Notes under the pieces: generated by a model | Told to the model about the DNA's origin: nothing | Databases searched by the model: none | What the model saw: only the letters and a program-made list of their open reading frames with translations | Made by a program: the position numbers and the translations under genes | Part shown: piece after piece, positions 8,306-31,017 of the stretch | Numbering within the stretch: the first letter of the stretch is position 1 | Layout: every line of letters begins with the position of its first letter | From: a virus | Taxonomy: Duplodnaviria; Heunggongvirae; Uroviricota; Caudoviricetes | Length of the DNA stretch: 64,000 nt | Virus record (IMG/VR): IMGVR_UViG_2974569193_000001 | Coordinates: 108,702-172,701 of that record | Strand: one strand, 5' to 3'

Positions 8306-11300
8306 ATGTCCGACCCCTTTGATTTCCTCGCCGCGCTGTTCGCGGCGCATGAAGGCCCGATCGCCTTCGAACACGACAACAAGACCGTCAAGACCCGCGA
8401 GCCTGAGTTCGTCGAGGATCATGCCGGCGCTCTGTATGTCTCGCCGTCCACGCCGGACGGCCGCGTCGCCTTCGTGTTCGGCTCTGACCAGGATGTCGAC
8501 CGCGACGCCTGGGAGTCGTTCCGTCTCAAGCCGACCGTGGTCCTCTACAAGGAGAAGACCGGCGACATGATCGTCGCCTGGGCCTTCGACGAGACCCAGG
8601 AACCCGACGATGTCCGCCGGCTGGCCGATGCCCTGGGCATGGCTGACCTGGAGGAGCCGATCCCGCTGCCGGGGACCAACGGCTGGGCCTTGGTCCACGC
8701 CGAGGAGAGCGACTACTACACGCTCGACGAGGTCGAACGCGTGTACGCGCCGGCCAAGAAGGTCGGCTACGACGATCCGCCCAAGAATCGGCAAAAAGAT
8801 CGGCAATTTTCTGACGCGCCTGCCGAGCAAGCCTCGGAAAAGTCTAAGAAAAAGGCTGCTTCTGACACCGGCAAGAAAACCGGCGCGGACGACCCGCCCT
8901 GGGACGAGGACCTGGGGACCTATGCCGACGCTCAGGTCAAGACGCCCTATGACGAGCGCGACCCGGCCCTGAGCCGTGAGATCATCGTCTCGGTCGGCGG
9001 CAACAGCAAGTCGATGAACTGGCAACCCAAGGCCATGCCGCTGGGCGCGTTCGTCGCCCAGTTCTGCCAGCACCGCGAGGGCGCCAAGGATGGCGTCTCC
9101 TTCGTCATGGGCGACATGGTCCCCGGCCAGCGCAAGAAGACGGCGGTCAAGGCCCTCTACGCGGTGGGCCTGGACGTCGACGTCGGCATGTCCTCGGCGG
9201 CGATCGACGCGGCGTTGAAGAAGTTCGGGCGCATGGCCGTGCGCTACACCACCCACTCGCACCTGAAGTCGGTCACGGACGTCAAGAAGGACGTCTTGAT
9301 CAAGTGGTGCGAGCAGGAAGCCGACGGCGCTGACTACGAGGAGGACGAGGTCCTCCAGCGCTACTTCCTGGCCAAGGACCTGATGACGCCGGAGATCGCC
9401 AAGACGGTCGAGTTCAACGGCACCGAGCACAAGGACGGCGGCATCATGGTGAGCGTCAAGCACGCTCCCATCGCCAAGCACCGGATCATCGTGCCGCTCG
9501 CCGAGGCGTTCGACATCTCCAAGGTCGCCCCGACCCAGAAGGAGGCGATGGAAAAGTGGGCCAAGGTTCCGACCGCGCTGGCGGCGGAACTGGGCGTGCC
9601 GCTCGACAAGTCGTGCCTGGACCCCTCGCGCCTCTTCTATCTGCCGCGTCACGCCAAGGGCAAGCCGTTCGAGGTCAGCCTGTTTGGTGGCGACCTCTTC
9701 GACTGGAAGAGCCTGACGCTCGACGACCCGTTCGAGGCCGAGATCGCCAAGCTCTCCAAGGGCACCAGCAAGTCCAAGACCGCCGCTGGCCGCGACCTCG
9801 GCCGCTGGTCGATGAAGGCCGCCCACGGCTTCCAGGTCGTGCAGGTGATGGAGGAGCACTGCCCCGACAAGCTGCGCCATCAAGTCTCGACCGGCTACGA
9901 GATCGAGTGCCCGTTTGACGACCTGCACTCCAATGCCGGCGACACCGAAGACCGCGCCTGTCTGGCGGTCAACGCCGGCGATGGCCCCAGCGAGTGGTTC
10001 ACCGTCCGCTGCCAACACGAGTCCTGCCGCGAGTTCACCAACCTCGACATGCTGGGCAAGATGGTCGAGGACGGCTGGTTCGACCGCGCCTGCCTGGACG
10101 ACGAGGACTACAACATCGTCGAGGCCGAGAACGCGCCCAACCCGGTCGCGGCCAAGCGCATCGAGACCGAGGACAAGGCCAAGGAAGCCTACATGCAGGC
10201 GATCTTCGACCTGCCTCAGATCGACTTCACCGACGACGACGTCGACAAGGTGGTGCGCATCTGTTGCGAGGCCGCCCTGGGGACCCTGGCCGAGAACAAG
10301 GCCAAGGACGCCCTCAAGGCGCGCCTGGGCGTCAACGGCACGGTCATCAACAAGATGTTCAAGGACATGAAGGCGAGCCTCGCCCGTGAACAGAACGTCG
10401 AGGGCACGGTCAAGGACCCCCTGGGCCGCAGCATCTTCTCCTATGCCGGCGAGTTCAACTTCGACGAGGCGTTCTCCTGCTGCTTCCGGGCGCTGCTGAA
10501 CACCAACCGCGAGAAGGACCAGCCGATCTTCTCCTGCTTGCAGGACAAGCCGGTCCGGATGGCGACGGATGTCGATGGGCGCCTGAAGTTCACCGAGATC
10601 GGGGCCTCGGCCGCGATGAACGCCGAACTGAACGAGCTTGTCACCTTCGTGCGCAAGAACGATCAGGGCACGGGCGCTCGCGGCCGGGTGCCCGACGACG
10701 TCGCCCGCCACGTCTACGAGAAGTGCTATACCCGCCTGCCTCGGACGCCCGAGATCATGTACACCCCGATCTACACGGCCGACGGTGACCTGATCCGCAA
10801 GCCGGGCTGGTATCAGAACCTGGACATCATGATGGCCGACATCGGCTTCCAGGTGCCCAAGGTCTATAGCGACCCGACGCCCGAGGAGGTCCAAGAGGCC
10901 GTGCGCCTGCTGACCGACGACGTGCTGATCGACTTCCCGTTCCTGGACTACGACACCCAGGGCAACGAGCGTCGTGAGCCGTCGCTGGCCAACGCCCTGG
11001 CGATGCTGATCACCCCGTTCATGCGCCGCATGATCGATAGCTGCACGCCGGTGTTCTTCGTCTCCAAGCCCACGCCCGGCACGGGTGGGACATTCCTGGG
11101 CATGGTGCCGATCATCCTCTTCGACGGGGAAGAGCCGGCCCCGATCCGCTATACTCAGAACGAAGAAGAGATGCAGAAAGCTCTTCTGGCTTCGCTGATG
11201 AATTCGAAGGCCTACTTGTTCTTCGATGACGTCAAGGAGTTTAACAATCGGGTGCTCCTGATGGCGATTACTTCCCGCTATATTGGCGGGCGGGTGCTGG

Positions 11301-11962
11301 GTTCCTCGAAGAACATCGAGATGCCTAACAACTCGATCTGGATCGCCACCGGCAACAACCCCTTGATCTCCTCGGAAATGGCGCGGCGGGTGGTCGACAT
11401 CCGCCTGAACGCCAAGACCTCGGACATCCAGAAGCGGACCTACCGCCACCCCGACTACGTCCAGTGGCTCAAGGCCAACCGGGGCGAGATCGTCCATGCG
11501 ATCCTGACCCTGATCGCCCACTGGATCAACTGCGGGATGCCCAAGTTCACGGCGCGCAAGCGCGCCTCGTTCGAGGACTGGTCCGAGAAGGTCGGCGGCG
11601 TGCTGATGTGCGCCAACATCGACGGCTTCCTGGACAACCGCCGCTCGGTGGCCGCCGACATGGATGAGGCCGCCATCAAGCAGTTCGTCCGCGACTGGCT
11701 GCTGAAGTGGGGCGAGAAGGCTCCGGTCAAGATTTCCGACCTGTGGAGCTACGCGTTCGACATGGAACTCGACATCGTGTCGGGCGCCAACGACGACCAG
11801 AAGAAGGCCCGCTTCATGCGCATCCTTCCGACCCTGGACGGCCGGACGTTCAAGATGCCGCGCGGCGACTGCATGGTCCGCGCCGGCTCCGACATCGACG
11901 GCAACGTCACCTATCATCTGGAGCGCTTGAGCGCGCCGGAGGAGGTCCTGGAGACTGCCTGA
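8306..11962 (+). CDS. large replication-associated multidomain protein, putative primase-helicase-like
   Basis: 1218 aa. Cys/His cluster CPFDDLHSN...CLAVN...RCQHESCREF, and a C-terminal NTPase-like region (SKPTPGTGGTFLGMV ... YLFFDDV) resembling D5/P4-type replicative proteins but with an atypical lysine-less loop. No polymerase motifs were seen. The antisense 1240-aa ORF 8195..11917 is a GC artefact. Confidence 0.6.
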   Translation: MSDPFDFLAALFAAHEGPIAFEHDNKTVKTREPEFVEDHAGALYVSPSTPDGRVAFVFGSDQDVDRDAWESFRLKPTVVLYKEKTGDMIVAWAFDETQEPDDVRRLADALGMADLEEPIPLPGTNGWALVHAEESDYYTLDEVERVYAPAKKVGYDDPPKNRQKDRQFSDAPAEQASEKSKKKAASDTGKKTGADDPPWDEDLGTYADAQVKTPYDERDPALSREIIVSVGGNSKSMNWQPKAMPLGAFVAQFCQHREGAKDGVSFVMGDMVPGQRKKTAVKALYAVGLDVDVGMSSAAIDAALKKFGRMAVRYTTHSHLKSVTDVKKDVLIKWCEQEADGADYEEDEVLQRYFLAKDLMTPEIAKTVEFNGTEHKDGGIMVSVKHAPIAKHRIIVPLAEAFDISKVAPTQKEAMEKWAKVPTALAAELGVPLDKSCLDPSRLFYLPRHAKGKPFEVSLFGGDLFDWKSLTLDDPFEAEIAKLSKGTSKSKTAAGRDLGRWSMKAAHGFQVVQVMEEHCPDKLRHQVSTGYEIECPFDDLHSNAGDTEDRACLAVNAGDGPSEWFTVRCQHESCREFTNLDMLGKMVEDGWFDRACLDDEDYNIVEAENAPNPVAAKRIETEDKAKEAYMQAIFDLPQIDFTDDDVDKVVRICCEAALGTLAENKAKDALKARLGVNGTVINKMFKDMKASLAREQNVEGTVKDPLGRSIFSYAGEFNFDEAFSCCFRALLNTNREKDQPIFSCLQDKPVRMATDVDGRLKFTEIGASAAMNAELNELVTFVRKNDQGTGARGRVPDDVARHVYEKCYTRLPRTPEIMYTPIYTADGDLIRKPGWYQNLDIMMADIGFQVPKVYSDPTPEEVQEAVRLLTDDVLIDFPFLDYDTQGNERREPSLANALAMLITPFMRRMIDSCTPVFFVSKPTPGTGGTFLGMVPIILFDGEEPAPIRYTQNEEEMQKALLASLMNSKAYLFFDDVKEFNNRVLLMAITSRYIGGRVLGSSKNIEMPNNSIWIATGNNPLISSEMARRVVDIRLNAKTSDIQKRTYRHPDYVQWLKANRGEIVHAILTLIAHWINCGMPKFTARKRASFEDWSEKVGGVLMCANIDGFLDNRRSVAADMDEAAIKQFVRDWLLKWGEKAPVKISDLWSYAFDMELDIVSGANDDQKKARFMRILPTLDGRTFKMPRGDCMVRAGSDIDGNVTYHLERLSAPEEVLETA

Positions 11963-13562: not shown

Positions 13563-14024
13563 ATGACCACCCTGATCGAACAACTCCGCAACGACGCCCT
13601 GGCCGCGCGCAAGGCCGCCGTCAAGAAGGAAGCCGGCGGCGAGCACGCCGCGCTCCTGGCCTCGGTCGCGTCCGACGCCACCATGATCGGCAAGAACGAC
13701 CGGGCCGCGCCCGGCCGCGAGCCGACCGATGACGAAACCGCCAAGGTCGTGAAGAAGTACATCGCCGGCCTGGAGACCTCGATCGAGGCGGCCCGCAGCG
13801 AGGAGGAGCGTTCGCGCTTCATCGTCGAGAAGCGGCGCCTGGAGGGCTTCCTGCCGCAGATGCTCGATGGCGGTCATCTGACCGATGCGATCCACGTCAC
13901 CCTGGCCAAGCTGGGCGTCGAGCGCGACGTCAAGAGCACCAAGGCGGTGGTCGCCGATCTGCAAGAGACCTATCCCGGTCAGATTGACCCGGCGGCCGTC
14001 TCGCGCTACCTTCGCAACGTCTGA
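13563..14024 (+). CDS. GatB/YqeY domain-containing protein
   Basis: 153 aa. Pattern DEETAKVVKKYIAGLETSIEAAR...EKRRLEGFLPQMLDG...KSTKAVVADLQETYPGQIDPAAVSRYLRN matches the YqeY fold. Confidence 0.6.
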   Translation: MTTLIEQLRNDALAARKAAVKKEAGGEHAALLASVASDATMIGKNDRAAPGREPTDDETAKVVKKYIAGLETSIEAARSEEERSRFIVEKRRLEGFLPQMLDGGHLTDAIHVTLAKLGVERDVKSTKAVVADLQETYPGQIDPAAVSRYLRNV

Positions 14025-20807: not shown

Positions 20808-21265
20808 TGGCAGACCTTCACGGGGTCGACGGCCGCGACCGGCGACATGTAGGTGTCGGGGTCCCAGGCGCCAGGAACGTTACCGCCCGAGATGTACTGG
20901 TAGTCCGGCGAGGGCGGGGTCATCGAGCCGCCATTGCTGGCGACCTTGCCCGGATTGGGGTAGAGCGACAGCCACAGGCGCCCGTCGGCCCCACGCAGGA
21001 CATATTGCCCGCTCTGGCGGCAGACCTTGGCGATCTGCATCCGCCACGCGTAGTTGAGCTTCTTCTTGCGCGCGGCCTCGTCGCGCAGCCACTGCTCATG
21101 ACCCATCCGCGCCCAGCGGGCCTTCTTGGCGACGAGTTCCTTGTGCTCCGGCGACCAGCGGAGGTGATCCTCCTCGTCGAGCGACACCACGGCCGCCGTC
21201 ATCCCAAGGATGACGACGACCGCTATGGTCGTGAGCCAGAACAGCGGATCGGTCAGGCGCTTCAT
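20804..21265 (-). CDS. membrane-anchored hypothetical protein
   Basis: Start at MKRLTDPLFWLTTIAVVVILGMTAAVV (N-terminal transmembrane segment). ATGA overlap with the upstream gene. Confidence 0.5.
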   Translation of the reverse strand: MKRLTDPLFWLTTIAVVVILGMTAAVVSLDEEDHLRWSPEHKELVAKKARWARMGHEQWLRDEAARKKKLNYAWRMQIAKVCRQSGQYVLRGADGRLWLSLYPNPGKVASNGGSMTPPSPDYQYISGGNVPGAWDPDTYMSPVAAVDPVKVCQ

Positions 21266-21507
21266 CAGGCGACGATGTCCTTGAAGGTGTCGCGGGCGTG
21301 GTCGGTGACCAACCAGACGCCCTCCTGGGTGTGGATCGGCATCAGCCAACCGGCGCGTTCGGCGAAGTCCAGGTTGCCGCAGAGTTGCCAGCCGCCGCCA
21401 GTATGGGCGTAGGTCGTCTGACCCTCGCCCACAAGGCCCTTGACGAGTTCGAAAGCGTGGGCGGCGTCATCGGCCACCAGGGCGGTGGCGGGGCGTTGAT
21501 AGCTCAT
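21265..21507 (-). CDS. hypothetical protein
   Basis: 80 aa; strong SD GAAGGAG. Confidence 0.5.
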   Translation of the reverse strand: MSYQRPATALVADDAAHAFELVKGLVGEGQTTYAHTGGGWQLCGNLDFAERAGWLMPIHTQEGVWLVTDHARDTFKDIVA

Positions 21508-21518
21508 GATCTTCTCCT

Positions 21519-22949
21519 TCAGGCGATCTCATAGCCAGCGGCGACGCGCTCGCGGATTTGGTCCAGCGTCGTCGGCTCCAGCACCTTGCCGGTGTTGAAG
21601 ACCTCGTCCAGCAGATCGTGCTCGACGACGTCGCCCTCGTGGACCGTGATGGTCTCGAAGCCGCCGGCCTCGTTGGTCACCAGGGCCAGCTTGCCCTTCT
21701 TGGAGACCTTGCCCGGATCGGTGATGGGGTCCTTGAAGATGTCGACCCACTCGCCGTTGATCTCTTGGGCCGACGACTTCATCGCCCACTTGTTGGTGTC
21801 GCGGTCCAGGTCGCCCGTCGCCAGACCACCGCCGGCCGCCGTCATGATGCTGTCGGGCGCGATGCCCAGGTCGCGACCCAGATAGAACGGGTCCATGTGG
21901 GTGTGCTCGTTCATGCCGTCGCCCTGGAGGACCTTGGCGTTCAGGTTGAGCACGTCCAGACCCTTGCTGTTGCGTTGGGTCCCGAAGCCGTCGGCCATGA
22001 TCTTGAGCACCGGCGGGATGACCTCGCCCAGCTTGCCGCTATCGGGACGGCAGACGATCGTGATGTTCTTGTTGGCGATCAGGTCCTTGAACTTCACCAG
22101 CTTGCGGGTGAACTCGAAGATGTTCCAGGTGTCGCCGACCAGCGAGACGATCGAACCAGCCGGCGCCCGGTTCAGGCAGTGCTCGATGTATTCGTCGTCG
22201 TTGTCGCGCCCGAACGAGCAGGAGATCGAGTGCTCGGTGGCCAGCACCGAGTAGGCCGACATCTCGCTGAAGTAGTTGATGTTCGCCGCGCGCACGGCCG
22301 GGACGTTGTCCGAGCCCTGGAAGTGGTAGAGGTGCGCGATGCCGGCCAGGACCGAGTGATCATAGCCCATGGTGCCGCGCGAGGAGAAGTCCAGGAAAGC
22401 GAACGGCGACATCGGCGTGTCGCTGGTGAGGTCCCAGAAGCTCTTGATCCGCGACGCGATGTTGTTGACGCGCGCGGCGATCGTCGAGGCCGTCCAGACG
22501 TCGCGCAGGATCATGGTCTCGAAGTACGAGGTCAGCCAGGGCAGGCGCGGGTCGAGGTTCTCGACGCTGATCAGGGCGTTCTTGACCGGGATCATCATGC
22601 CCTCGGGCACGGCCTTGATGCGCAGCGGCAGGTAGCCGCCGTACTCGTTCAGGATGATCTCCCAGCCGTCGCGGTTGAACGGCAGGCCGTGGGCCGGCAC
22701 GAACACGGCCATCTCGTCGATGTCGGCGCGGGTGATCGGCTTGCAGAGCTTCTGGAAGAGCAGGCGCTGGAACGCGGCCAGCATCACCTTGGGGTAACGC
22801 CCGCCCCGGCTCTCGATGTAGCTGTAGACGGTGGTGCAGCCGTCGCGATAGAGCACCCAGTGCCCCAGCTTGTAGCTGTCGGTGTCGGCGATCAGGTTGT
22901 AGGTCTCGACGGGAGCGACCCCGTCCCATTTGGCGATGTCGAAGGCCAT
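21519..22949 (-). CDS. nadV: nicotinamide phosphoribosyltransferase (NAMPT/NadV)
   Basis: 476 aa. N-terminal DTDSYKLGHW (NAPRTase-family DSYK..H signature) and overall NAMPT-like length. Antisense ORFs 21558..22970 are artefacts. Confidence 0.85.
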   Translation of the reverse strand: MAFDIAKWDGVAPVETYNLIADTDSYKLGHWVLYRDGCTTVYSYIESRGGRYPKVMLAAFQRLLFQKLCKPITRADIDEMAVFVPAHGLPFNRDGWEIILNEYGGYLPLRIKAVPEGMMIPVKNALISVENLDPRLPWLTSYFETMILRDVWTASTIAARVNNIASRIKSFWDLTSDTPMSPFAFLDFSSRGTMGYDHSVLAGIAHLYHFQGSDNVPAVRAANINYFSEMSAYSVLATEHSISCSFGRDNDDEYIEHCLNRAPAGSIVSLVGDTWNIFEFTRKLVKFKDLIANKNITIVCRPDSGKLGEVIPPVLKIMADGFGTQRNSKGLDVLNLNAKVLQGDGMNEHTHMDPFYLGRDLGIAPDSIMTAAGGGLATGDLDRDTNKWAMKSSAQEINGEWVDIFKDPITDPGKVSKKGKLALVTNEAGGFETITVHEGDVVEHDLLDEVFNTGKVLEPTTLDQIRERVAAGYEIA

Positions 22950-22959
22950 GATGTCCCCT

Positions 22960-24183
22960 TTATGCGTTGAGGCTGAGCATGCGGTCCACGATGAAGGCGT
23001 GGTCCTCGAAGGTGTTGGACGGGTCGATCTCGGAGATCGGGTCCCAGTCGGCGGCGGCGGCGTCGTCGTGCCCCTTGACCACCGGCAGGCTCAGGCCCAG
23101 CGCCGGCGGCGGGATGAGGAAGTGGAAAGCGGTCGAGATGATGTGGGCGCGCCGCGAGCGGTGCGGATCGTCAAAGACCTGGGGCTCGCCGACCAGGAAG
23201 CGGCGAAGCTCCTCCATGGCCTTGACCACGTAGCCCGGCGCGGCCGGCGGGCGCAGGCCCAGCTTCTCGGCCTGCTTGCAGGCGGCGAGCCAGTGGACGA
23301 AGTTGGGATAGTCCCGCTCGGAAATGAACAGCGCGGTCTCTTCGATGATCTCGCGCAGGCAGTTGGCCAGCAGCGAGGAGCCGGCGTTGACGAAGCCGCC
23401 GGGCAGGGCCTTCATGCCCAGCCCCTCGGCGCCGCCGCGCTCGATCCGCAGAACGTGACCGGCGCACTCGACCACGCCGTCGACGGCCAGGAACGGACCC
23501 GGCCCCCAGCGTTCGCGGTAGGCGTCCTCGGCCTTCTTCTGGTCGAGCAGGTAGGCGTAGACCTTCTTGTCGCGGAACCGCTCCAGGAAGTCGATGGTGC
23601 TCGGATAGAGCAGATCGGTCCAGGCATGGCCCCGGTCGCTCCAGGCGGTGTCGCGGAAGTTGACCCCGCCGGCGAAGTAGGCTTGACGCAGAGCCGTGGC
23701 GTTGACGCCGTTGTCCTCGACCGGGGTATAGGGCCATTGCGGGAACCAAGTCAGGTATTCGCTGGTGGCGTCGCGGACGTTGCCGATCAGGGTGACGCGC
23801 GGGCGCAGCACCTTGGTGGCGTTCTTGACGTGCTGCTGGACCTGGGCGATCCACTCGTTCTTGCCATAGGGGCCGGTGTCGTTGAGCGCGATCACCTCGG
23901 TGTTCGACAGGTGATGCAGGATGCGCTCGCCGGTGATCTCGACATCGCTATCTTCGACCTCCTCGCGGGCCAGATCGCTGAGCCCGTTGAGGATCATCTC
24001 CTTGCGTTCCTCGAACACGAAGGGATTGCGCGTGTCGCGGGCGAGGTTGGCCGAGCCGATGAACCAGAGGACCTTGCGGGCCTTCTTGCGCGCCGCCTGA
24101 TACAGGCGGAAGTGGCCGAGCTTGGTCGGCATTTGCGCCCGCGTGATCAGCACCGCGATGTCGTACTCGAAATCCACCATCAC
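22960..24183 (-). CDS. natV: bifunctional NMN adenylyltransferase / Nudix ADP-ribose pyrophosphatase (NatV/NadM-like)
   Basis: 407 aa. N-terminal nucleotidyltransferase region (VLITRAQMPTKLGHFRLYQ). C-terminal Nudix box GGFVNAGSSLLANCLREIIEETAL. Confidence 0.8.
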   Translation of the reverse strand: MMVDFEYDIAVLITRAQMPTKLGHFRLYQAARKKARKVLWFIGSANLARDTRNPFVFEERKEMILNGLSDLAREEVEDSDVEITGERILHHLSNTEVIALNDTGPYGKNEWIAQVQQHVKNATKVLRPRVTLIGNVRDATSEYLTWFPQWPYTPVEDNGVNATALRQAYFAGGVNFRDTAWSDRGHAWTDLLYPSTIDFLERFRDKKVYAYLLDQKKAEDAYRERWGPGPFLAVDGVVECAGHVLRIERGGAEGLGMKALPGGFVNAGSSLLANCLREIIEETALFISERDYPNFVHWLAACKQAEKLGLRPPAAPGYVVKAMEELRRFLVGEPQVFDDPHRSRRAHIISTAFHFLIPPPALGLSLPVVKGHDDAAAADWDPISEIDPSNTFEDHAFIVDRMLSLNA

Positions 24184-24635
24184 CTCCTAAAGGCCGGGCG
24201 GATGCGCCGGGCCGGCTTGTTCTCGGTCAATTCCCGCCCGCTGAAGGGCGGGAAGGAAAGCTCGCTGATGCCGTTCTGCCGGATGGCGAACTGGCGCTTC
24301 TTGGTGTCGATCCCGTCGAGGTGCGTGCTGCGCCGCCGCTCGATGAGTTCGAGGTCGACGACGTCACCAAACACCTTGCCGTGGAAAATCTGCCGCCGCG
24401 CCCAGGTGATGGCCGAACCCAGGTGCTCGAAGGTCCTGGTCTTCTCGGCCTCCAGGAGGCTGGCGCCGTCATGGAAGGACGGGTCCACCCACGACAGCTT
24501 GATTTCCCGCGCCGGGAGAGACTTGACCAGGACGTTGATGGGCTCGTAGCCGAAACGCTGGGCAAAGTCGCCCACGTCGTAGCTCTCGATGTCCAGCACC
24601 ACCATGGTGATCGGCTTGGTCGTTACGGACGACAC
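24180..24635 (-). CDS. hypothetical protein
   Basis: 151 aa; GTG start directly after an AAGCGTTGACAAAGCC promoter, possibly leaderless. Confidence 0.5.
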   Translation of the reverse strand: MSSVTTKPITMVVLDIESYDVGDFAQRFGYEPINVLVKSLPAREIKLSWVDPSFHDGASLLEAEKTRTFEHLGSAITWARRQIFHGKVFGDVVDLELIERRRSTHLDGIDTKKRQFAIRQNGISELSFPPFSGRELTENKPARRIRPAFRR

Positions 24636-24665
24636 TATCGATTTCCCTCCGGCTTTGTCAACGCT
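24636..24665 (-). promoter_or_regulatory. second-class promoter AAGCGTTGACAAAGCC, possibly leaderless
   Basis: An identical 16-mer AAGCGTTGACAAAGCC, 17 bp, then ATAGTG, where the GTG is the start codon of gene 24180..24635. Confidence 0.45.
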
Positions 24666-25142
24666 TTAACGCAGGAGCTTGAGCGAGGCCGGCGCGTGGT
24701 ACTTGAACGACGACTCGGTGATCGGTCCAATTCCGACGAAGGTCACGGTGGGCTTGTCGAAAACGGTCCGGCCGGCGTCCACGACCAGGGTCGCGCCAGA
24801 GTAATCGCGGAACCGCTCGTAGAGGGCTTCCAGTTCTTCGTTGGTGCCGGTGTGGAGCGCGATCTTCGCCGCCGACTGCGAGTAGCGGTACTGGCGCGCG
24901 GTCTTCGGAAATCGCTCCATGGCGTCCCACCACGCATGCAGATAGGCGTGTCCAGCCTGGGCGGAGAGCTTGCCGATGTTAAGGGACTTGTCCTCCGGCT
25001 TGCGGCTGCGCTTGGCCACGGTCATCGCGTCGAGCGCTTCCTGGCTGACGATGGCGTAGAGTCGCAGTTCCGCCTTGGGCTTGCCGGCGAAGCAGGCCAT
25101 CAGAAGGTCCCAGGCGTGCAGCCAGTTGTCGATGAATTTCAT
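24666..25142 (-). CDS. pth2: peptidyl-tRNA hydrolase, PTH2 family
   Basis: 158 aa. GKLSAQAGHA (Pth2 GKxAAQxxHA) and C-terminal TLVVDAGRTVF...TFVGIGP...LKLL match Pth2. Confidence 0.7.
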   Translation of the reverse strand: MKFIDNWLHAWDLLMACFAGKPKAELRLYAIVSQEALDAMTVAKRSRKPEDKSLNIGKLSAQAGHAYLHAWWDAMERFPKTARQYRYSQSAAKIALHTGTNEELEALYERFRDYSGATLVVDAGRTVFDKPTVTFVGIGPITESSFKYHAPASLKLLR

Positions 25143-25582
25143 GCCCGCAAGGCCCTTTCATAGTGATCCTCCAGCGCGATGGCCGCGTCGAAGGCGATGT
25201 CGATGAGGTCCTCGTTGATGATGACCTCGCAGGAGCGATGGAGGCTGACCATCGCCAGGGATTCGTAGGCCTTGTTGAGGGCGCTCAGCGTCTTGAGGTT
25301 CAGGGCCAGACGATCCAGCAGCTTGACGCCATAGACCTCAGGGCCGAATGGTCCCTTGTGGGTGTAGAGCCGTTTCTTGACCTTCGGGAAGGTCTCCCAG
25401 TCCTTGACGTGCAGGTCGGCCATCAGGTCGGCGGTCTGCTCGATCAGCACCACATAGCGCATCAGCTTGCGCAAGCGCGCCTGGATGTCGTCGGACTTGG
25501 CCGTCGGCGGAGGATCGCGACAATCCTCCGCCTCATAGGCCGCCAGCATCCGCGCTCGATACAGAACGTCGGCGATCGCCAC
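25139..25582 (-). CDS. hypothetical protein
   Basis: 147 aa; ATGA overlap with pth2. Confidence 0.5.
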   Translation of the reverse strand: MAIADVLYRARMLAAYEAEDCRDPPPTAKSDDIQARLRKLMRYVVLIEQTADLMADLHVKDWETFPKVKKRLYTHKGPFGPEVYGVKLLDRLALNLKTLSALNKAYESLAMVSLHRSCEVIINEDLIDIAFDAAIALEDHYERALRA

Positions 25583-25585
25583 CGA

Positions 25586-26017
25586 TTAGGCCTCGGGGGT
25601 CGGGGCTTCGGTTTCCGGCTCGGCGGTGGTCTTGGCCTTACCCTTGGCGCCCGTCGTCGGCGAAGCCTGCGGCTCGTCAACCATCGGCGCGGCCGGCGTC
25701 TCGACCTGCACCGGCTCGACGTCGGCCGGGACGTCGACCGCCGCGTAGTCGGCCTCGAACGCGGCCGGCTTCAGGATCAGCATCTCGTAGTCGTTCTCGC
25801 CGCGCGGGATGCGCACGATGTAGTCGTCCTGGGTCGCCGAGGCGATCTGGCCGTTGATCGGCACCAGCAGCTTGCCGACCGCATCCTTGCCGACGCTCAT
25901 GGTGCCCATGGCGGTGTAGGCGGAGTGCTTGGTCAGCCATTCCGGCAGGTCTTCCAGGCGCTGGAAGGTGTATTGGACCGCGTCGACGGTCACGGGCAGG
26001 CGGGTGTACTTGCTCAA
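25586..26017 (-). CDS. hypothetical protein
   Basis: 143 aa; TTG start with SD AGGAG; acidic P/E/T-rich tail. Confidence 0.5.
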   Translation of the reverse strand: MSKYTRLPVTVDAVQYTFQRLEDLPEWLTKHSAYTAMGTMSVGKDAVGKLLVPINGQIASATQDDYIVRIPRGENDYEMLILKPAAFEADYAAVDVPADVEPVQVETPAAPMVDEPQASPTTGAKGKAKTTAEPETEAPTPEA

Positions 26018-26026
26018 GGATAGCTC

Positions 26027-26611
26027 CTACTGGGGTTGGGCCGGCGCCGGGATGGCGAAGGCAAGGGATTGTTCGACCAGGGCCAAGAGGTCGGTTACCA
26101 GCTTGGGATTGAGGTCGTCCTCGGTCAGGGCGGCGGCGACGGCGTTGATCCGCGACCACGTGAAGTCCTCGGTCAGGCCAAGGTTGTGGAGGCGCAGCAG
26201 GGTCTCGCCGTGGATCGCCACGACGCCGGAAAGGTCACGCAGGTTGCGCAAGGTCAGCAGCCGCTCGGAAAGCATCTTGATCGCGCTGCCCGAGGGCGCC
26301 AGGAGCAGGCGCATCCAGTCGCCGCCGGGGTCGTCGCCCCGGCGCAGGTCCGGATGGTCCAGGGTCGCGCCCCAGATCACCGCGTGGGCTTTGGCGGCCA
26401 GCGACTGCCGGCGCTTGGCGATGGCCTCGGCTTCCTTGGCTTCGCGCTGGGCGGTCAGGAAGGTGGCGATGATCGCCGAGGGAAAGATCGCCACGAGGAA
26501 GAAGGCGAGGCGGTCGGTCCAGACCGCGTGCGGCGTGATCACGTTCATGGCCGTGCCGATCAGCACCGTGGGATAGATCAGGCCGCCGTGGCGGTGGATG
26601 AACTTGATCAT
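26027..26611 (-). CDS. membrane protein
   Basis: 194 aa with two N-terminal transmembrane segments. Preceded by a cassette promoter; a GGCCTCCG/CGGAGGCC hairpin in the leader contains the SD. Confidence 0.55.
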   Translation of the reverse strand: MIKFIHRHGGLIYPTVLIGTAMNVITPHAVWTDRLAFFLVAIFPSAIIATFLTAQREAKEAEAIAKRRQSLAAKAHAVIWGATLDHPDLRRGDDPGGDWMRLLLAPSGSAIKMLSERLLTLRNLRDLSGVVAIHGETLLRLHNLGLTEDFTWSRINAVAAALTEDDLNPKLVTDLLALVEQSLAFAIPAPAQPQ

Positions 26612-26674
26612 GAAAAGGGCCTCCGGCGTTGTCGTCGGAGGCCCTTCTAGCGAGTCGGTGTCAGGCTGTCAACA
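26612..26674 (-). promoter_or_regulatory. cassette promoter with a hairpin leader
   Basis: GTGTTGACAG, 17 bp, TAGAAG, then GGCCTCCG-ACGACAACG-CCGGAGGCC (an 8-bp stem that sequesters the SD), then CTTTTC-ATG. Confidence 0.55.
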
Positions 26675-26678
26675 CATG

Positions 26679-27293
26679 TCAGCCAGCCGCAGCCACCAAC
26701 TTCTCGATGCGGTTGAAGCCCAGTTCGAGCCGGCCCCAGAAGGCGCTCGGCACGTGCGGCTTGACGACCTCGGTGAAGCGCGCGCGCTCCTTGAGGTACA
26801 TCTTGGCCATGCCCAGGTGAGGCGCCTGGGTCGCCGGGTCCTTGATCGACGCCTCGACGTTGGCGATCCGGTCGGCCAGCTTCAGGATGCAGGCCTCGGG
26901 GTTCTCGCCGAGCTTGCGATAGATGTCCTCGTTGCGGGACTTGCGGTTGGGACCGATGCCCGAGACCGCCCAGACCAGCGCCGCGACGCGGTCGCCGAAC
27001 TTGTCCTCGATCATCTGACGGCGGGCCTCGGGCGTCATGTCGAGGTGGGTGTCCTCGATCACGTCGTGCAGCTTGGCCGCCGCCGTCCAGGTGAAGCCGG
27101 CATAGCCGAAATCGTCCAGGATGCGCTCGACCTTCTGGAGGTGGTAGAGGTAGGGCTGGCCGGCGTACTGCTGATCGCCGTGCGCGGCGATGGCGAACTT
27201 CGTCGGGTCCTCCTGGTGGAAGCCGCCGGGCGCGCCGACGTCCGCCATCAGGTTGGCCAGTTGGTCGGGATCGGACAGGGGCGTGTCGGTCAT
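26679..27293 (-). CDS. HD-domain small alarmone hydrolase ((p)ppGpp hydrolase, SpoT/Mesh1-like)
   Basis: 204 aa. AAHGDQQYAGQPYLYHLQKV ... LHDVIEDT matches the RelA/SpoT hydrolase HD motif (H..GQ.R..G.PY..H ... LHD..EDT). Confidence 0.75.
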   Translation of the reverse strand: MTDTPLSDPDQLANLMADVGAPGGFHQEDPTKFAIAAHGDQQYAGQPYLYHLQKVERILDDFGYAGFTWTAAAKLHDVIEDTHLDMTPEARRQMIEDKFGDRVAALVWAVSGIGPNRKSRNEDIYRKLGENPEACILKLADRIANVEASIKDPATQAPHLGMAKMYLKERARFTEVVKPHVPSAFWGRLELGFNRIEKLVAAAG

Positions 27294-27697
27294 GACGTTT
27301 TCTCGGGGATCAGGGTGAAGACTTCCACGCCCTCGTCGATGCGCATGTGGTGCGTCGGCGGGTGGGCGGGGTTGTAGCGGATGTAGCCGGCGAGGCCGCC
27401 GTCGATCATCGCGCCGCCGCGCTCCTGGTAGTCGTGGCGGAAGCGCGAGACCAGGAACGAGCCATCGGCGAGCTTGATGGCCGAGAACACCGCCTCGCGG
27501 ATCGAGGCCGCCGAGGTAATGTAGACGCCCTCTTTGAGGGGATGGACGAACAACCCGAAGTAGTTGTCGTGGCCCTGCGACCGATCCGGCGTCTCGGTGT
27601 AGAAGACGTAGAACGGACCCTCCCGATCGGGGAGGTCATAGTAGCCCACGTACTTGGCGTTGTAGCGCTCTTCGGCGACTTTGACGTTGATGCCCAT
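27290..27697 (-). CDS. hypothetical protein
   Basis: 135 aa; ATGA overlap with the SAH gene. Confidence 0.5.
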   Translation of the reverse strand: MGINVKVAEERYNAKYVGYYDLPDREGPFYVFYTETPDRSQGHDNYFGLFVHPLKEGVYITSAASIREAVFSAIKLADGSFLVSRFRHDYQERGGAMIDGGLAGYIRYNPAHPPTHHMRIDEGVEVFTLIPEKTS

Positions 27698-28197
27698 CAG
27701 GCGACCCTCAGGAATTCACCCCACGCGGGGGCGGCGTATTTCAGATAGGCCTCGTGCGCGGCCTCCGGCGTACTATAGCGTCCCAGGAAGCGATAGACAC
27801 CATGAATGGTGATCTGGGCCTGGAACGGCTTGCTCTTGCATCGGCACTTGGTCACGCCCTTGGGCAGGGCGCCGATCGGGCGGCGGTTGACGAGGTTCTG
27901 CGACCGCGTGGCCTTCCGGAGGTTCTTGATCCGGTTGTTGCGGCGGTTGCAGTCCTCGTGGTCGACGTCATGGTCGGGGACGACCCCGTGGTGGAGCGCC
28001 CAGGCCAGCTTGTGGGCGGCGATCTGGATGCGGCGGCCCTCGTAGGGGACCTTGATCACCCGGTAGCCGTCCTGGTTGACCGTGCCCAGGCGCTTGCGGG
28101 TCTTGGAACCCCGCAGATAGATGGCGCCGGACGAGGCCTCATAGCGGTAGCGCGCCTTGAGGTACTCGACCGGGATGACGTACTCTGCCCCCGACAT
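27697..28197 (-). CDS. HNH homing endonuclease with C-terminal AP2 DNA-binding domain
   Basis: Start at MSGAEYVIPVEY (SD AAGGA). HNH motif AHKLAWALHHG...HEDCNRRNNRIKNL; AP2-like KCRCKSKPFQAQITIHGVYRFLGRYSTPEAAHEAYLKYA. Confidence 0.75.
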   Translation of the reverse strand: MSGAEYVIPVEYLKARYRYEASSGAIYLRGSKTRKRLGTVNQDGYRVIKVPYEGRRIQIAAHKLAWALHHGVVPDHDVDHEDCNRRNNRIKNLRKATRSQNLVNRRPIGALPKGVTKCRCKSKPFQAQITIHGVYRFLGRYSTPEAAHEAYLKYAAPAWGEFLRVA

Positions 28198-29784: not shown

Positions 29785-31017
29785 CTAGCCCTTCACGCAG
29801 AGGACTTGCTTCAGGGTGTGGACGATGTCCACGAGGTCCTTCTGCGCCTCCATGACCGCGTCGATGTCCTTGTAGGCCATCGGGATTTCGTCGATCACGC
29901 CGATGTCCTTGCGGCACTCGACGCCTTCGGTCGCCTTGATCTGGTCTTCCAGCGTGAAGGCCGCCTTGGCGGCGGTGCGCGACATGGTCCGGCCCGCGCC
30001 GTGCGAGCACGAGCAGAACGAGTCGGCGTTGCCCTTGCCGCGCACGATGTAGGACTTGGCCCCCATCGAGCCGGGGATGATGCCGAACTGGTCCTTCTGA
30101 GCCGACACCGCGCCCTTGCGGGTCACGAAGACCCACTCGTCGAAGTGGAACTCCTTCTGGACGTAGTTGTGGTGGCAGTTCACCGCTTCCTTGTCCGTCT
30201 TGAAGGGCGGCAGGCCCGAGGCGCGCATGGCGTCCAGGACCCGGATCATCATCATCTCGCGGTTGATCCGCGCGAAGTCCTGGCCCCAGGCGACGGCTTC
30301 CACGTAGTCGTAGAATTCCGGCTCGCCTTCCGACAGCCACGCGAGGTCCTTGTCGAGCGGCTTCTGGCCGTCCCGACGCAGCATCATCTCCTTGGCCTTC
30401 TCGATGAAGATACGACCGATGGTGTTGCCGACGCCGCGCGAGCCCGAGTGGAGCATCACCCAGACGCGCTGGTCCTCGTCGAGGCAGACCTCGATGAAGT
30501 GGTTGCCGCCGCCCAGCGTGCCCAGTTGGACGACGCTGTTGGCGTTCTTGAGGGCCTTGTACTTGTCGCAGAGCTTCTCGAACCGAGCCTCCAGGCCCGA
30601 GTCGACCCACTTGCGCATGATCGAGTTCGGGATGCCGCTGCGCCCGTTCCAGCCGCCCGACGGACCCGGCCCGCCGTGCGGGACGGCGTGCTCGATCAGC
30701 GAGCGCAGCTTGGCGAGGCTGTCGGGCAGGTCCGAGGCCGTCAGCGAGGTGCGCACGGCCATCATGCCGCAGCCGATGTCCACGCCCACGGCCGCCGGGA
30801 TGATGGCGCCCTTGGTCGGGATCACCGAGCCCACGGTCGAGCCGATGCCCATGTGGACGTCCGGCATCAGGGCCACGTGCGAATGGATGAACGGCAGGGC
30901 GGCGAGGTTGTGCGCCTGCACCTGGGCGGGTTGTTCGAAGGTCACGCCCCGGACCCAGGCCTTGATCACCCCGCCGTTCCAGCCGGTGATCTCTTCGTAT
31001 TGGGTCTCGGCGGTCAT
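29785..31017 (-). CDS. rtcB: RNA-splicing ligase RtcB
   Basis: 410 aa. RtcB hallmarks: HSHVALMPDVHMGIGSTVGSVIP, GGGNHFIE, HSGSRG, NCHHNYV, SCSHGAGR. Cassette promoter upstream. Confidence 0.9.
   Translation of the reverse strand: MTAETQYEEITGWNGGVIKAWVRGVTFEQPAQVQAHNLAALPFIHSHVALMPDVHMGIGSTVGSVIPTKGAIIPAAVGVDIGCGMMAVRTSLTASDLPDSLAKLRSLIEHAVPHGGPGPSGGWNGRSGIPNSIMRKWVDSGLEARFEKLCDKYKALKNANSVVQLGTLGGGNHFIEVCLDEDQRVWVMLHSGSRGVGNTIGRIFIEKAKEMMLRRDGQKPLDKDLAWLSEGEPEFYDYVEAVAWGQDFARINREMMMIRVLDAMRASGLPPFKTDKEAVNCHHNYVQKEFHFDEWVFVTRKGAVSAQKDQFGIIPGSMGAKSYIVRGKGNADSFCSCSHGAGRTMSRTAAKAAFTLEDQIKATEGVECRKDIGVIDEIPMAYKDIDAVMEAQKDLVDIVHTLKQVLCVKG

What the first reader, a model, noticed from the sequence alone, without database searches (positions are those of the whole stretch)
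24666..25142. Phage-encoded Pth2-type peptidyl-tRNA hydrolase
GKLSAQAGHA and the C-terminal DAGRT...IGP...LKLL match the archaeal/eukaryotic Pth2 fold rather than bacterial Pth. Together with RtcB, this suggests the phage protects the host tRNA pool and translation, for example against defences that trap peptidyl-tRNA or modify aminoacyl-tRNA. Pth2 is uncommon in phages.
Basis: partly seen in the sequence, partly recalled or inferred. Interest (0 to 1): 0.55.

Follow-up and report, generated by a model that had tools for sequence, protein, structure and literature searches.

The report
Known phage Pth2 peptidyl-tRNA hydrolase
This gene of Caulobacter phage CcrBL10 does encode an archaeal/eukaryotic-type (Pth2) peptidyl-tRNA hydrolase that most likely frees tRNAs stuck to aborted peptides, but the same gene is already annotated in sister phages and discussed in the literature, so it is an ordinary, correct call.

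Summary
Window 24666-25142 (minus strand) is a 158-aa ORF, gp256 of Caulobacter phage CcrBL10 (a phiCbK-like 221-kb siphovirus). It matches Pfam PTH2 (PF01981) at 53.2 bits against a cut-off of 23. A family profile hits all solved Pth2 structures (E down to 9e-22). A confident AlphaFold model (pLDDT 92.9) superposes on archaeal and human Pth2 (target TM 0.75-0.85). The residues that align with the S. solfataricus active-site residues (Lys58, Asp122, Thr126, plus His65) are invariant across 25 homologues. dN/dS is 0.09-0.36.

It is a divergent subfamily. It falls below the NCBIfam equivalog cut-offs and carries an extra N-terminal helix and a basic insertion. The subfamily is seen mainly in phage-like contigs, with chromosomal copies in nine species genomes, mostly Caulobacterales.

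The finding is not new. phiCbK orthologues have been annotated as Pth2 since 2012. Iyer et al. 2021 describe PTH2 across jumbo phages. A 2025 paper superposes a Caulobacter phage Pth on M. jannaschii Pth2.

The most likely role is recycling peptidyl-tRNA or N-acyl-aminoacyl-tRNA to sustain translation in a tRNA-rich phage. An anti-defence role alongside RtcB is plausible but untested, and linkage to RtcB is not consistent across genera. No phage Pth2 has been assayed in anything I found. Interest is low.

The parts
24666..25142 (-). Pth2-family peptidyl-tRNA hydrolase CDS (158 aa; CcrBL10 gp256, RefSeq 'hydrolase', GenBank 'hypothetical protein')
   Evidence: ORF. PF01981 53.2 bits against cut-off 23. 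PHROG 11824. AF2 model pLDDT 92.9. Foldseek top 13 PDB hits are all Pth2. dN/dS 0.09-0.36.
24945..24974 (-). Motif GKLSAQAGHA (residues 57-66). It contains Lys58, which aligns with S. solfataricus Pth2 Lys18, plus Gln62 and His65.
   Evidence: G57, K58, A61, Q62, G64 and H65 are invariant in 25 homologues. The alignment to 1xty places the GK of the motif on chain residues 17-18.
24765..24779 (-). Motif DAGRT (residues 122-126). Asp122 aligns with S. solfataricus Asp86 and Thr126 with Thr90.
   Evidence: D122 and T126 are invariant. Alignment to 1xty, 2zv3 and 1q7s. Codons read directly.
25086..25139 (-). Extra N-terminal helix (residues 2-19), absent from archaeal and human Pth2 cores
   Evidence: Model helix H2-19 with pLDDT 91-92. 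It is conserved in phiCbK, Rogue and a 54%-identical metagenomic relative, with pN below pS.
24981..25022 (-). Lineage-specific basic insertion (residues 41-54, TVAKRSRKPEDKSL) between strand 1 and the GK motif
   Evidence: It is present in the window protein, P0002 and P0005 and absent from the other 22 sequences in alignment A1. It is present in phiCbK and Rogue but absent from the L008 relative. It is the lowest-confidence part of the model (block mean pLDDT 69, short hairpin E41-43/E52-54).
25139..25142 (-). ATGA start/stop overlap with the upstream ORF (25139-25549), suggesting translational coupling
   Evidence: Sequence read. The same ATG is conserved in phiCbK and in the L008 relative.
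29785..31017 (-). RtcB RNA ligase. This is context, a possible functional partner in tRNA maintenance, not an operon partner shown here.
   Evidence: PF01139 E 4.1e-123. Same strand, 4.6 kb upstream.

Best explanation
The gene encodes a functional, divergent member of the Pth2 family. It would hydrolyse the ester bond between the 3'-terminal adenosine of tRNA and an N-blocked aminoacyl or peptidyl group. During infection it would add to the host's single bacterial-type Pth1. It would clear peptidyl-tRNA that drops off ribosomes, and any N-acylated aminoacyl-tRNA, so that host tRNAs and the phage's own roughly 26 or more tRNAs are returned to the pool and phage translation continues. Shown here: family membership by profile, predicted fold, conservation of the residues aligned with the archaeal active site, purifying selection, and a phage-borne lineage. 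Inferred: the substrate, the catalytic activity and the benefit to the phage.
For: PF01981 at 53.2 bits against cut-off 23. The family profile hits seven PDB Pth2 sequences at E 9e-22 to 1e-13. The AF2 model has pLDDT 92.9 and pTM 0.87. Its best PDB matches are exclusively Pth2 (2zv3, 1wn2, 1q7s, 3erj, 1rlk, 1xty), with target TM 0.75-0.85 and E down to 7.5e-9. The model has the canonical core of four strands and four helices described for Pth2. K58, D122, T126, Q62 and H65 are invariant in 25 homologues of 32-82% identity, and they align with S. solfataricus K18, D86 and T90. The role of those archaeal residues comes from my knowledge of Fromant et al. 2005. dN/dS is 0.09-0.36 among Caulobacter phage orthologues. 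The phage carries tRNA genes tagged up to gt026. Pth2 sits in or near tRNA genes in other phages and in about 96% of cluster C mycobacteriophage tRNA arrays. Host Pth activity is known to be needed for lambda growth because of minigene-driven peptidyl-tRNA drop-off, as cited.
Against: No enzymatic or genetic test of any phage Pth2 turned up in the literature searches. The protein scores well below the NCBIfam equivalog cut-offs for archaeal Pth2 (48 against 126; 44.5 against 82). Its extra N-terminal helix and basic insertion could alter substrate or partner choice. The host already has Pth1, so the need for a second enzyme is not demonstrated.
Confidence: 0.8

Rival explanations
1. Same chemistry, but the selected role is counter-defence. 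The enzyme would undo or bypass tRNA-directed immunity. It could deacylate N-acetyl-aminoacyl-tRNA made by GNAT-type toxins (TacT/AtaT-like). Or it could strip peptides from tRNAs cut by anticodon nucleases so that RtcB can reseal them and stalled ribosomes can be cleared.
For: The gene lies in a block rich in putative counter-defence or takeover functions. These are NadV plus NatV (a NARP2-type NAD+ rebuilding pair), an HD_4 protein most similar to small alarmone hydrolases (toxSAS enzymes pyrophosphorylate tRNA CCA ends), and RtcB 4.6 kb away. The order HD_4...Pth2...NatV-NadV is kept in a 54%-identical relative. RtcB is 6.4 kb from Pth2 in another metagenomic contig. Bacterial Pth reverses TacT acetylation. 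Iyer et al. 2021 proposed the ribosome-rescue-after-tRNA-cleavage role for jumbo-phage PTH2.
Against: Neighbourhoods are not conserved across genera. CcrSC, Kikimora and Phosso show no annotated RtcB, NadV or HD gene within 6 kb. No defence system is known to be countered by any Pth. Caulobacterales chromosomes carry the same subfamily next to gyrB, a housekeeping context. RtcB is several times more frequent in phages than Pth2 (667 records against about 100), so most RtcB phages do without it.
Confidence: 0.15
2. The Pth2 fold has been recruited to a different ester or amide substrate, or to a non-catalytic role (binding ribosomes, tRNA or a host protein). The N-terminal helix and basic loop would supply the new specificity.
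For: The protein falls below the equivalog thresholds. It has about 40 extra residues relative to 115-120-aa archaeal enzymes. The subfamily has a distinctive invariant AQAGHA[YF]LH(A)WW motif. Human PTRH2/Bit1 has a second, non-enzymatic signalling role (my own knowledge).
Against: Every residue aligned with the archaeal catalytic site is invariant. The core superposes closely. The additions are variable or absent in close homologues: most family members are 120-130 aa without the helix or the insertion. The conserved part is therefore the canonical enzyme.
Confidence: 0.05

Closest known systems
Archaeal Pth2 (M. jannaschii MJ0051, PDB 2zv3; P. horikoshii 1wn2; S. solfataricus 1xty)
   Same: Same fold (target TM 0.80-0.85). 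Same GK...AQ..HA and DAG.T...GIGP motifs, with Lys, Asp and Thr aligned. Four strands and four helices in the core.
   Different: Only 20-24% identity. Below the NCBIfam equivalog cut-offs. About 40 residues longer: an N-terminal helix (residues 2-19) and a helix plus hairpin insertion (residues 34-54) before the GK motif. Encoded by a phage of a bacterium that has Pth1.
phiCbK gp165 / CcrRogue gp162, 'putative peptidyl-tRNA hydrolase' / 'PTH2 family protein' (GenBank JX100813, JX163858, JX100814; 2012)
   Same: Direct orthologues, 80-93% identical, at the same genomic position between the HD-domain gene and NatV/NadV.
   Different: Those records start the CDS at Met15 (143-144 aa). In CcrBL10 the GenBank record calls the gene 'hypothetical protein' and RefSeq calls it 'hydrolase'.
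PTH2 of jumbo phages and giant viruses (Iyer et al. 2021, PMC7824862; RaK2 ORF188, PMC3622015; cluster C mycobacteriophages, PMC5966550; Viral AlphaFold Database paper, PMC12487901)
   Same: Virus-encoded Pth2 in large, tRNA-bearing genomes. The proposed roles are tRNA recycling and ribosome rescue. A Caulobacter phage Pth model has already been superposed on M. jannaschii Pth2.
   Different: The Caulobacter/Brevundimonas phage clade (PHROG 11824) is a separate sequence cluster from the general phage Pth2 PHROG 1866. It has chromosomal relatives in Caulobacterales.
Bacterial Pth1 (E. coli Pth, PF01195)
   Same: Presumed same reaction and physiological role. Pth1 also detoxifies TacT-acetylated aminoacyl-tRNA.
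   Different: Unrelated fold and catalytic residues (His, Asp, Asn in Pth1). There was no Pth1 match in the Pfam, NCBIfam or PDB searches.

Membership tests
Pth2 (Pfam PF01981, peptidyl-tRNA hydrolase type 2) | Significant match to the family profile above the curated gathering score | tested here: met
   53.2 bits against cut-off 23, E 4.2e-14, covering profile positions 12-106 of 115. All 85 homologues found also carry PF01981.
Pth2 (Pfam PF01981, peptidyl-tRNA hydrolase type 2) | Pth2 alpha/beta fold (four-stranded sheet with four helices) | tested here: met
   AF2 model pLDDT 92.9. Foldseek PDB ranks 1-13 are all Pth2, target TM 0.75-0.85, probability 1.00. The next fold, Atu0240 (2gax), scores only E 0.099.
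Pth2 (Pfam PF01981, peptidyl-tRNA hydrolase type 2) | Active-site residues equivalent to S. solfataricus Lys18, Asp86 and Thr90, plus the conserved His of AQxxHA | tested here: met
   K58, D122, T126 and H65 are invariant in 25 homologues and align with those positions of 1xty (counted from the printed alignment). The catalytic role of the archaeal residues is from my knowledge of Fromant et al. 2005 and was not re-read here.
Pth2 (Pfam PF01981, peptidyl-tRNA hydrolase type 2) | Hydrolysis of peptidyl-tRNA or N-acyl-aminoacyl-tRNA | not testable with these tools
Pth2 (Pfam PF01981, peptidyl-tRNA hydrolase type 2) | Homodimeric assembly as in archaeal and human crystal structures | not tested
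   Only a monomer was modelled. PMC12487901 reports confident homodimer predictions for viral Pth homologues, including a Caulobacter phage one.
NCBIfam equivalogs of archaeal Pth2 (NF003314 / TIGR00283) | Score above the curated equivalog cut-off | tested here: not met
   48 bits against 126, and 44.5 bits against 82. It is a family member but not an 'equivalog' of the archaeal enzyme. It forms a divergent subfamily.
Bacterial Pth1 (PF01195) | Any profile or structural match | tested here: not met
   No Pth1 hit in Pfam, NCBIfam, PDB sequence search or fold search.

The most novel reading that the evidence does not exclude
The phiCbK-type Pth2 could be a dedicated counter-defence enzyme. With its extra N-terminal helix and basic loop, it would work alongside the neighbouring small-alarmone-hydrolase-like HD protein and RtcB as a tRNA-repair toolkit. 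That toolkit would reverse three kinds of immune damage to tRNA: N-acylation or trapping as peptidyl-tRNA, 3'-pyrophosphorylation, and cleavage.
Probability: 0.12. Interest if true: 0.6.

Novelty: already known. Interest (0 to 1): 0.15.

Why it matters
It matters little as a discovery. The gene family, its presence in phiCbK-like and other large phages, and its likely role have all been published or annotated since 2012-2021. The open point is experimental. No phage Pth2 appears to have been assayed, so it is unknown whether the enzyme is general translation support for a tRNA-rich phage or a counter-measure to tRNA-targeting immunity. The Caulobacter/phiCbK system is genetically tractable and would be a reasonable place to test this. 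A practical by-product is that the CcrBL10 GenBank entry ('hypothetical protein') and RefSeq entry ('hydrolase') could be upgraded to 'peptidyl-tRNA hydrolase, Pth2 family'.

Tried and rejected
(1) Operon logic with NAD+ salvage. Pth2 lies 500 bp from NatV/NadV, and this order is kept in a 54%-identical relative. It is lost in CcrSC, Kikimora and Phosso. I therefore treat it as lineage synteny, not functional coupling.

(2) Obligate pairing with RtcB. RtcB is nearby here and in one metagenomic contig. It is not annotated within 6 kb in three other genera. Those flanks are mostly 'hypothetical', and I judged them by annotation only. RtcB is found in 667 phage records against roughly 100 for Pth2.

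(3) Neighbouring small ORFs (24180-24635, 25139-25549, 25586-26017, 26027-26611, 27290-27697). They have no Pfam hits and match only PHROGs of unknown function, so they gave no clue to a partner.

(4) A purely archaeal or eukaryotic origin. The genome scan found the subfamily motif in nine proteobacterial genomes, and in Asticcacaulis it lies in a chromosomal gyrB context. Host-lineage exchange is at least as likely as an ancient archaeal link.

(5) Literature on a phage Pth acting in anti-defence. Nothing was found.

(6) Powers et al. 2005 (PMC2253226) could not be read.

(7) The first dN/dS script failed on a file path and was rerun successfully.

Full report
**Provenance and observation**

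The 7-kb stretch around the finding (window 21000-28000) is 100% identical to Caulobacter phage CcrBL10 (MH588544.1 / NC_048045.1). This is a 220,934-bp phiCbK-like siphovirus of the genus Poindextervirus. That match places the window at record positions 108702-172701. It is CcrBL10 gp256, called 'hydrolase' in RefSeq and 'hypothetical protein' in GenBank. The quoted motifs are in the translation:

- GKLSAQAGHA at residues 57-66
- DAGRT at residues 122-126
- IGP at residues 138-140
- LKLL at residues 154-157

The 280-aa ORF on the opposite strand has no support and is the kind of antisense ORF expected in GC-rich DNA.

**Identity**

- Pfam PF01981 (PTH2) matches at E 4.2e-14 and 53.2 bits, against a gathering score of 23. 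The match covers profile positions 12-106 of 115.
- PHROGs places the protein in phrog_11824 ('hydrolase', E 4.8e-90) and, more weakly, in phrog_1866.
- Against PDB sequences, the single protein finds M. jannaschii Pth2 (2zv3, E 1.9e-8), human Bit1/PTRH2 (1q7s) and P. horikoshii Pth2 (1wn2).
- A profile of 25 homologues finds seven Pth2 sequences at E 9.1e-22 to 1.2e-13.
- An AlphaFold2 model built on that alignment is confident (mean pLDDT 92.9, pTM 0.87).
- The 13 best Foldseek matches in the PDB are all Pth2 structures, with target-normalised TM 0.75-0.85.
- The model shows the four-strand, four-helix core described for Pth2.
- No search produced any match to bacterial Pth1.

**Active site and selection**

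In the alignment of 25 homologues (32-82% identical to the query), the invariant positions are G57, K58, A61, Q62, G64, H65, D122, T126, T132, T134, G137, G139 and P140. I counted along the printed alignment to S. solfataricus Pth2 (1xty). By that count K58 falls on Lys18, D122 on Asp86 and T126 on Thr90. To my recollection of Fromant et al. 2005, Lys18 and Asp86 are the residues shown by mutagenesis to be critical. I could not re-read that paper here.

Nei-Gojobori dN/dS is 0.09 between CcrBL10 and CcrRogue. It is 0.21 between CcrBL10 and phiCbK, and 0.36 between phiCbK and Rogue. The gene is therefore under purifying selection.

**How it departs from the textbook enzyme**

The protein scores far below the NCBIfam equivalog cut-offs for archaeal Pth2 (48 against 126 bits; 44.5 against 82). 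It is about 40 residues longer than the 115-120-aa archaeal proteins. There are two additions:

- **An N-terminal helix (residues 2-19).** It is modelled with pLDDT above 90.
- **A short helix plus basic hairpin (residues 34-54).** This includes TVAKRSRKPEDKSL, which is the least confident part of the model.

The basic insertion is limited to the closest relatives. In alignment A1 only the window protein, P0002 and P0005 carry it. The helix is shared with P0002 and the metagenomic relatives P0005, P0006 and P0008, which are about 54-59% identical. Most family members are 120-130 aa and have neither addition.

The ATG at 25142 overlaps the stop codon of the upstream ORF (ATGA). It is conserved in phiCbK and in the metagenomic relative, and the first 25 codons evolve with pN below pS. 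The 158-aa form is therefore probably correct. The 143-144-aa CDSs annotated in phiCbK and Rogue are probably too short.

**Distribution**

With the window protein as query, tblastn finds the gene in 41 phage records. These are all the phiCbK-like phages, the Bertelyvirus jumbo phages of Caulobacter, two Brevundimonas phages, Sinorhizobium phage Phosso and one uncultured phage.

With M. jannaschii Pth2 or the Phosso protein as query, 61 and 55 records match. They include mycobacteriophages, Klebsiella RaK2-like phages, Sinorhizobium phiM12-like phages, Agrobacterium Atu_ph07 (two copies), Xanthomonas XacN1 and Xoo-sp13, Ralstonia RsoM2USA and Salicola SCTP-2. Roughly 0.2% of the 50,697 records therefore carry a Pth2, and most of those genomes are large.

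The BFVD fold search adds giant eukaryotic viruses: Yasminevirus, Pithovirus, Klosneuvirus and Hyperionvirus.

The three metagenomic relatives I looked up lie on phage-like contigs of small unannotated ORFs.

A scan of one genome per species (185,579 species) for the subfamily motif AQAGHA[YF]LH found nine genomes. All are Proteobacteria, and five of them are Caulobacterales (three Asticcacaulis and two Hyphomonadaceae). In Asticcacaulis biprosthecium the gene lies directly downstream of gyrB and upstream of an AraC/GyrI-like regulator. That is a chromosomal context, not an obvious prophage. The subfamily is therefore shared between Caulobacterales phages and a few members of the host order.

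**Context**

All neighbours are on the minus strand:

| Feature | Window coordinates | Evidence |
|---|---|---|
| NadV (NAMPT) | 21519-22949 | |
| NatV (NMN adenylyltransferase + Nudix) | 22960-24177 | |
| Unknown ORF, 151 aa | 24180-24635 | |
| Pth2 | 24666-25142 | this finding |
| Three unknown ORFs | 25139-26611 | |
| HD_4 protein | 26679-27293 | |
| RtcB | 29785-31017 | |

The best solved relatives of the HD_4 protein are small alarmone hydrolases and Rel hydrolase domains.

The order HD_4...Pth2...NatV-NadV is retained in a 54%-identical relative. In CcrSC, Kikimora and Phosso the Pth2 gene sits in unrelated neighbourhoods, in two cases near tRNA genes. One metagenomic contig has RtcB 6.4 kb from Pth2. 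RtcB occurs in 667 phage records, several times more than Pth2.

CcrBL10 has tRNA genes tagged up to gt026, none of them in this window. In cluster C mycobacteriophages a PTH2-like gene is part of about 96% of tRNA arrays.

**Mechanism**

The best-supported reading is the plain one. This is an active Pth2-type esterase that releases tRNA from peptidyl-tRNA and other N-blocked aminoacyl-tRNAs. It would supplement host Pth1 during the burst of phage translation in a genome that brings its own large tRNA set. Family, fold, conserved catalytic positions and selection are shown here; substrate and benefit are inferred. Supporting background is that host Pth activity is required for lambda growth because minigene translation produces dropped-off peptidyl-tRNA (cited).

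The main rival keeps the same chemistry but sees the enzyme as counter-defence. It would deacylate toxin-acetylated aminoacyl-tRNA, since bacterial Pth reverses TacT. Or it would clear peptidyl fragments after anticodon-nuclease attack so that RtcB can repair the tRNA, as Iyer et al. 2021 proposed for jumbo-phage PTH2. The local company of NAD+ rebuilding genes (NARP2-type), a SAH-like hydrolase (toxSAS enzymes pyrophosphorylate tRNA) and RtcB makes this attractive. Against it, linkage is not conserved across genera, no defence system is known to be countered this way, and the chromosomal homologues sit in a housekeeping context. A change of substrate or a non-catalytic role is unlikely given the invariant active-site positions.

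**Novelty**

Orthologues in phiCbK, Rogue, Karma, Magneto and Swift have been annotated as 'putative peptidyl-tRNA hydrolase' or 'PTH2 family protein' since 2012. The published record includes:

- RaK2's Pth2 was noted in 2013.
- Iyer et al. 2021 describe PTH2 across jumbo phage groups 2 and 3, and remark that it is the archaeo-eukaryotic type.
- The 2025 Viral AlphaFold Database paper highlights viral Pths and superposes a Caulobacter phage model on M. jannaschii Pth2.

The finding is a correct re-identification of a known feature. The one thing missing from the literature I could search is any experimental test of a phage Pth2.

**Verdict**

The finding is already known, and interest is low (0.15). 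The residual novel reading is a dedicated tRNA-repair counter-defence toolkit combining the SAH-like protein, Pth2 and RtcB. I give that reading about 12% probability.

Noticed in passing
window 21519-24177 (-): NadV (NAMPT, 476 aa) and NatV (NMN adenylyltransferase + Nudix, 405 aa) lie side by side about 500 bp from Pth2. This is the two-enzyme nicotinamide-to-NAD+ route that the literature calls NARP2, a known counter to NAD+-depleting defence.
   Followed up: partly
window 26679-27293 (-): This 204-aa HD_4 protein is annotated variously as 'metal-dependent phosphohydrolase', 'GTP pyrophosphokinase' or 'SpoT/RelA'. Its best solved relatives are small alarmone hydrolases (6z3n, 6z3o) and Rel hydrolase domains. 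It has no synthetase domain, so 'GTP pyrophosphokinase' looks like a misannotation. It could degrade (p)ppGpp or (p)ppApp, or remove 3'-pyrophosphate from tRNA.
   Followed up: partly
window 25100-25142 (-); L012 3001-3474; L013 301-777: The phiCbK and CcrRogue GenBank CDSs start at Met15 (143-144 aa). The upstream ATG, overlapping the previous ORF's stop as ATGA, and the N-terminal helix it encodes are conserved even in a 54%-identical relative. The longer form is probably the real one.
   Followed up: yes
L015 3989-4384 (Asticcacaulis biprosthecium C19); L014, L016, L018-L022: The phage-type Pth2 subfamily occurs in only nine of 185,579 species genomes, mostly Caulobacterales. In A. biprosthecium it sits between gyrB and an AraC/GyrI-like regulator, a chromosomal context rather than a prophage. 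This points to gene exchange between these phages and their host order.
   Followed up: partly
Agrobacterium phage Atu_ph07 (NC_042013.1) 466381-466695 and 198555-198935: This 490-kb jumbo phage appears to carry two different Pth2 paralogues. One is closer to archaeal Pth2 and one is closer to the Phosso type.
   Followed up: no
window 13563-14024 (+): A GatB/YqeY-domain protein ('tRNA amidotransferase', PHROG 1460, E 2e-27) is another small translation-related accessory gene in the same window.
   Followed up: no
window 24180-24635, 25139-26611, 27290-27697 (-): Five conserved small ORFs flanking Pth2 have no Pfam hits and match only PHROGs of unknown function (phrog_12373, 12803, 419, 12778, 12504). 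They are mostly kept in the same order in phiCbK.
   Followed up: partly
window 8306-11962 (+): RefSeq labels this 1218-aa product 'PE-PGRS family protein'. That is a mycobacterial family name and is unlikely to be meaningful in a Caulobacter phage. It is probably a glycine-rich repetitive protein that attracted a low-complexity match.
   Followed up: no
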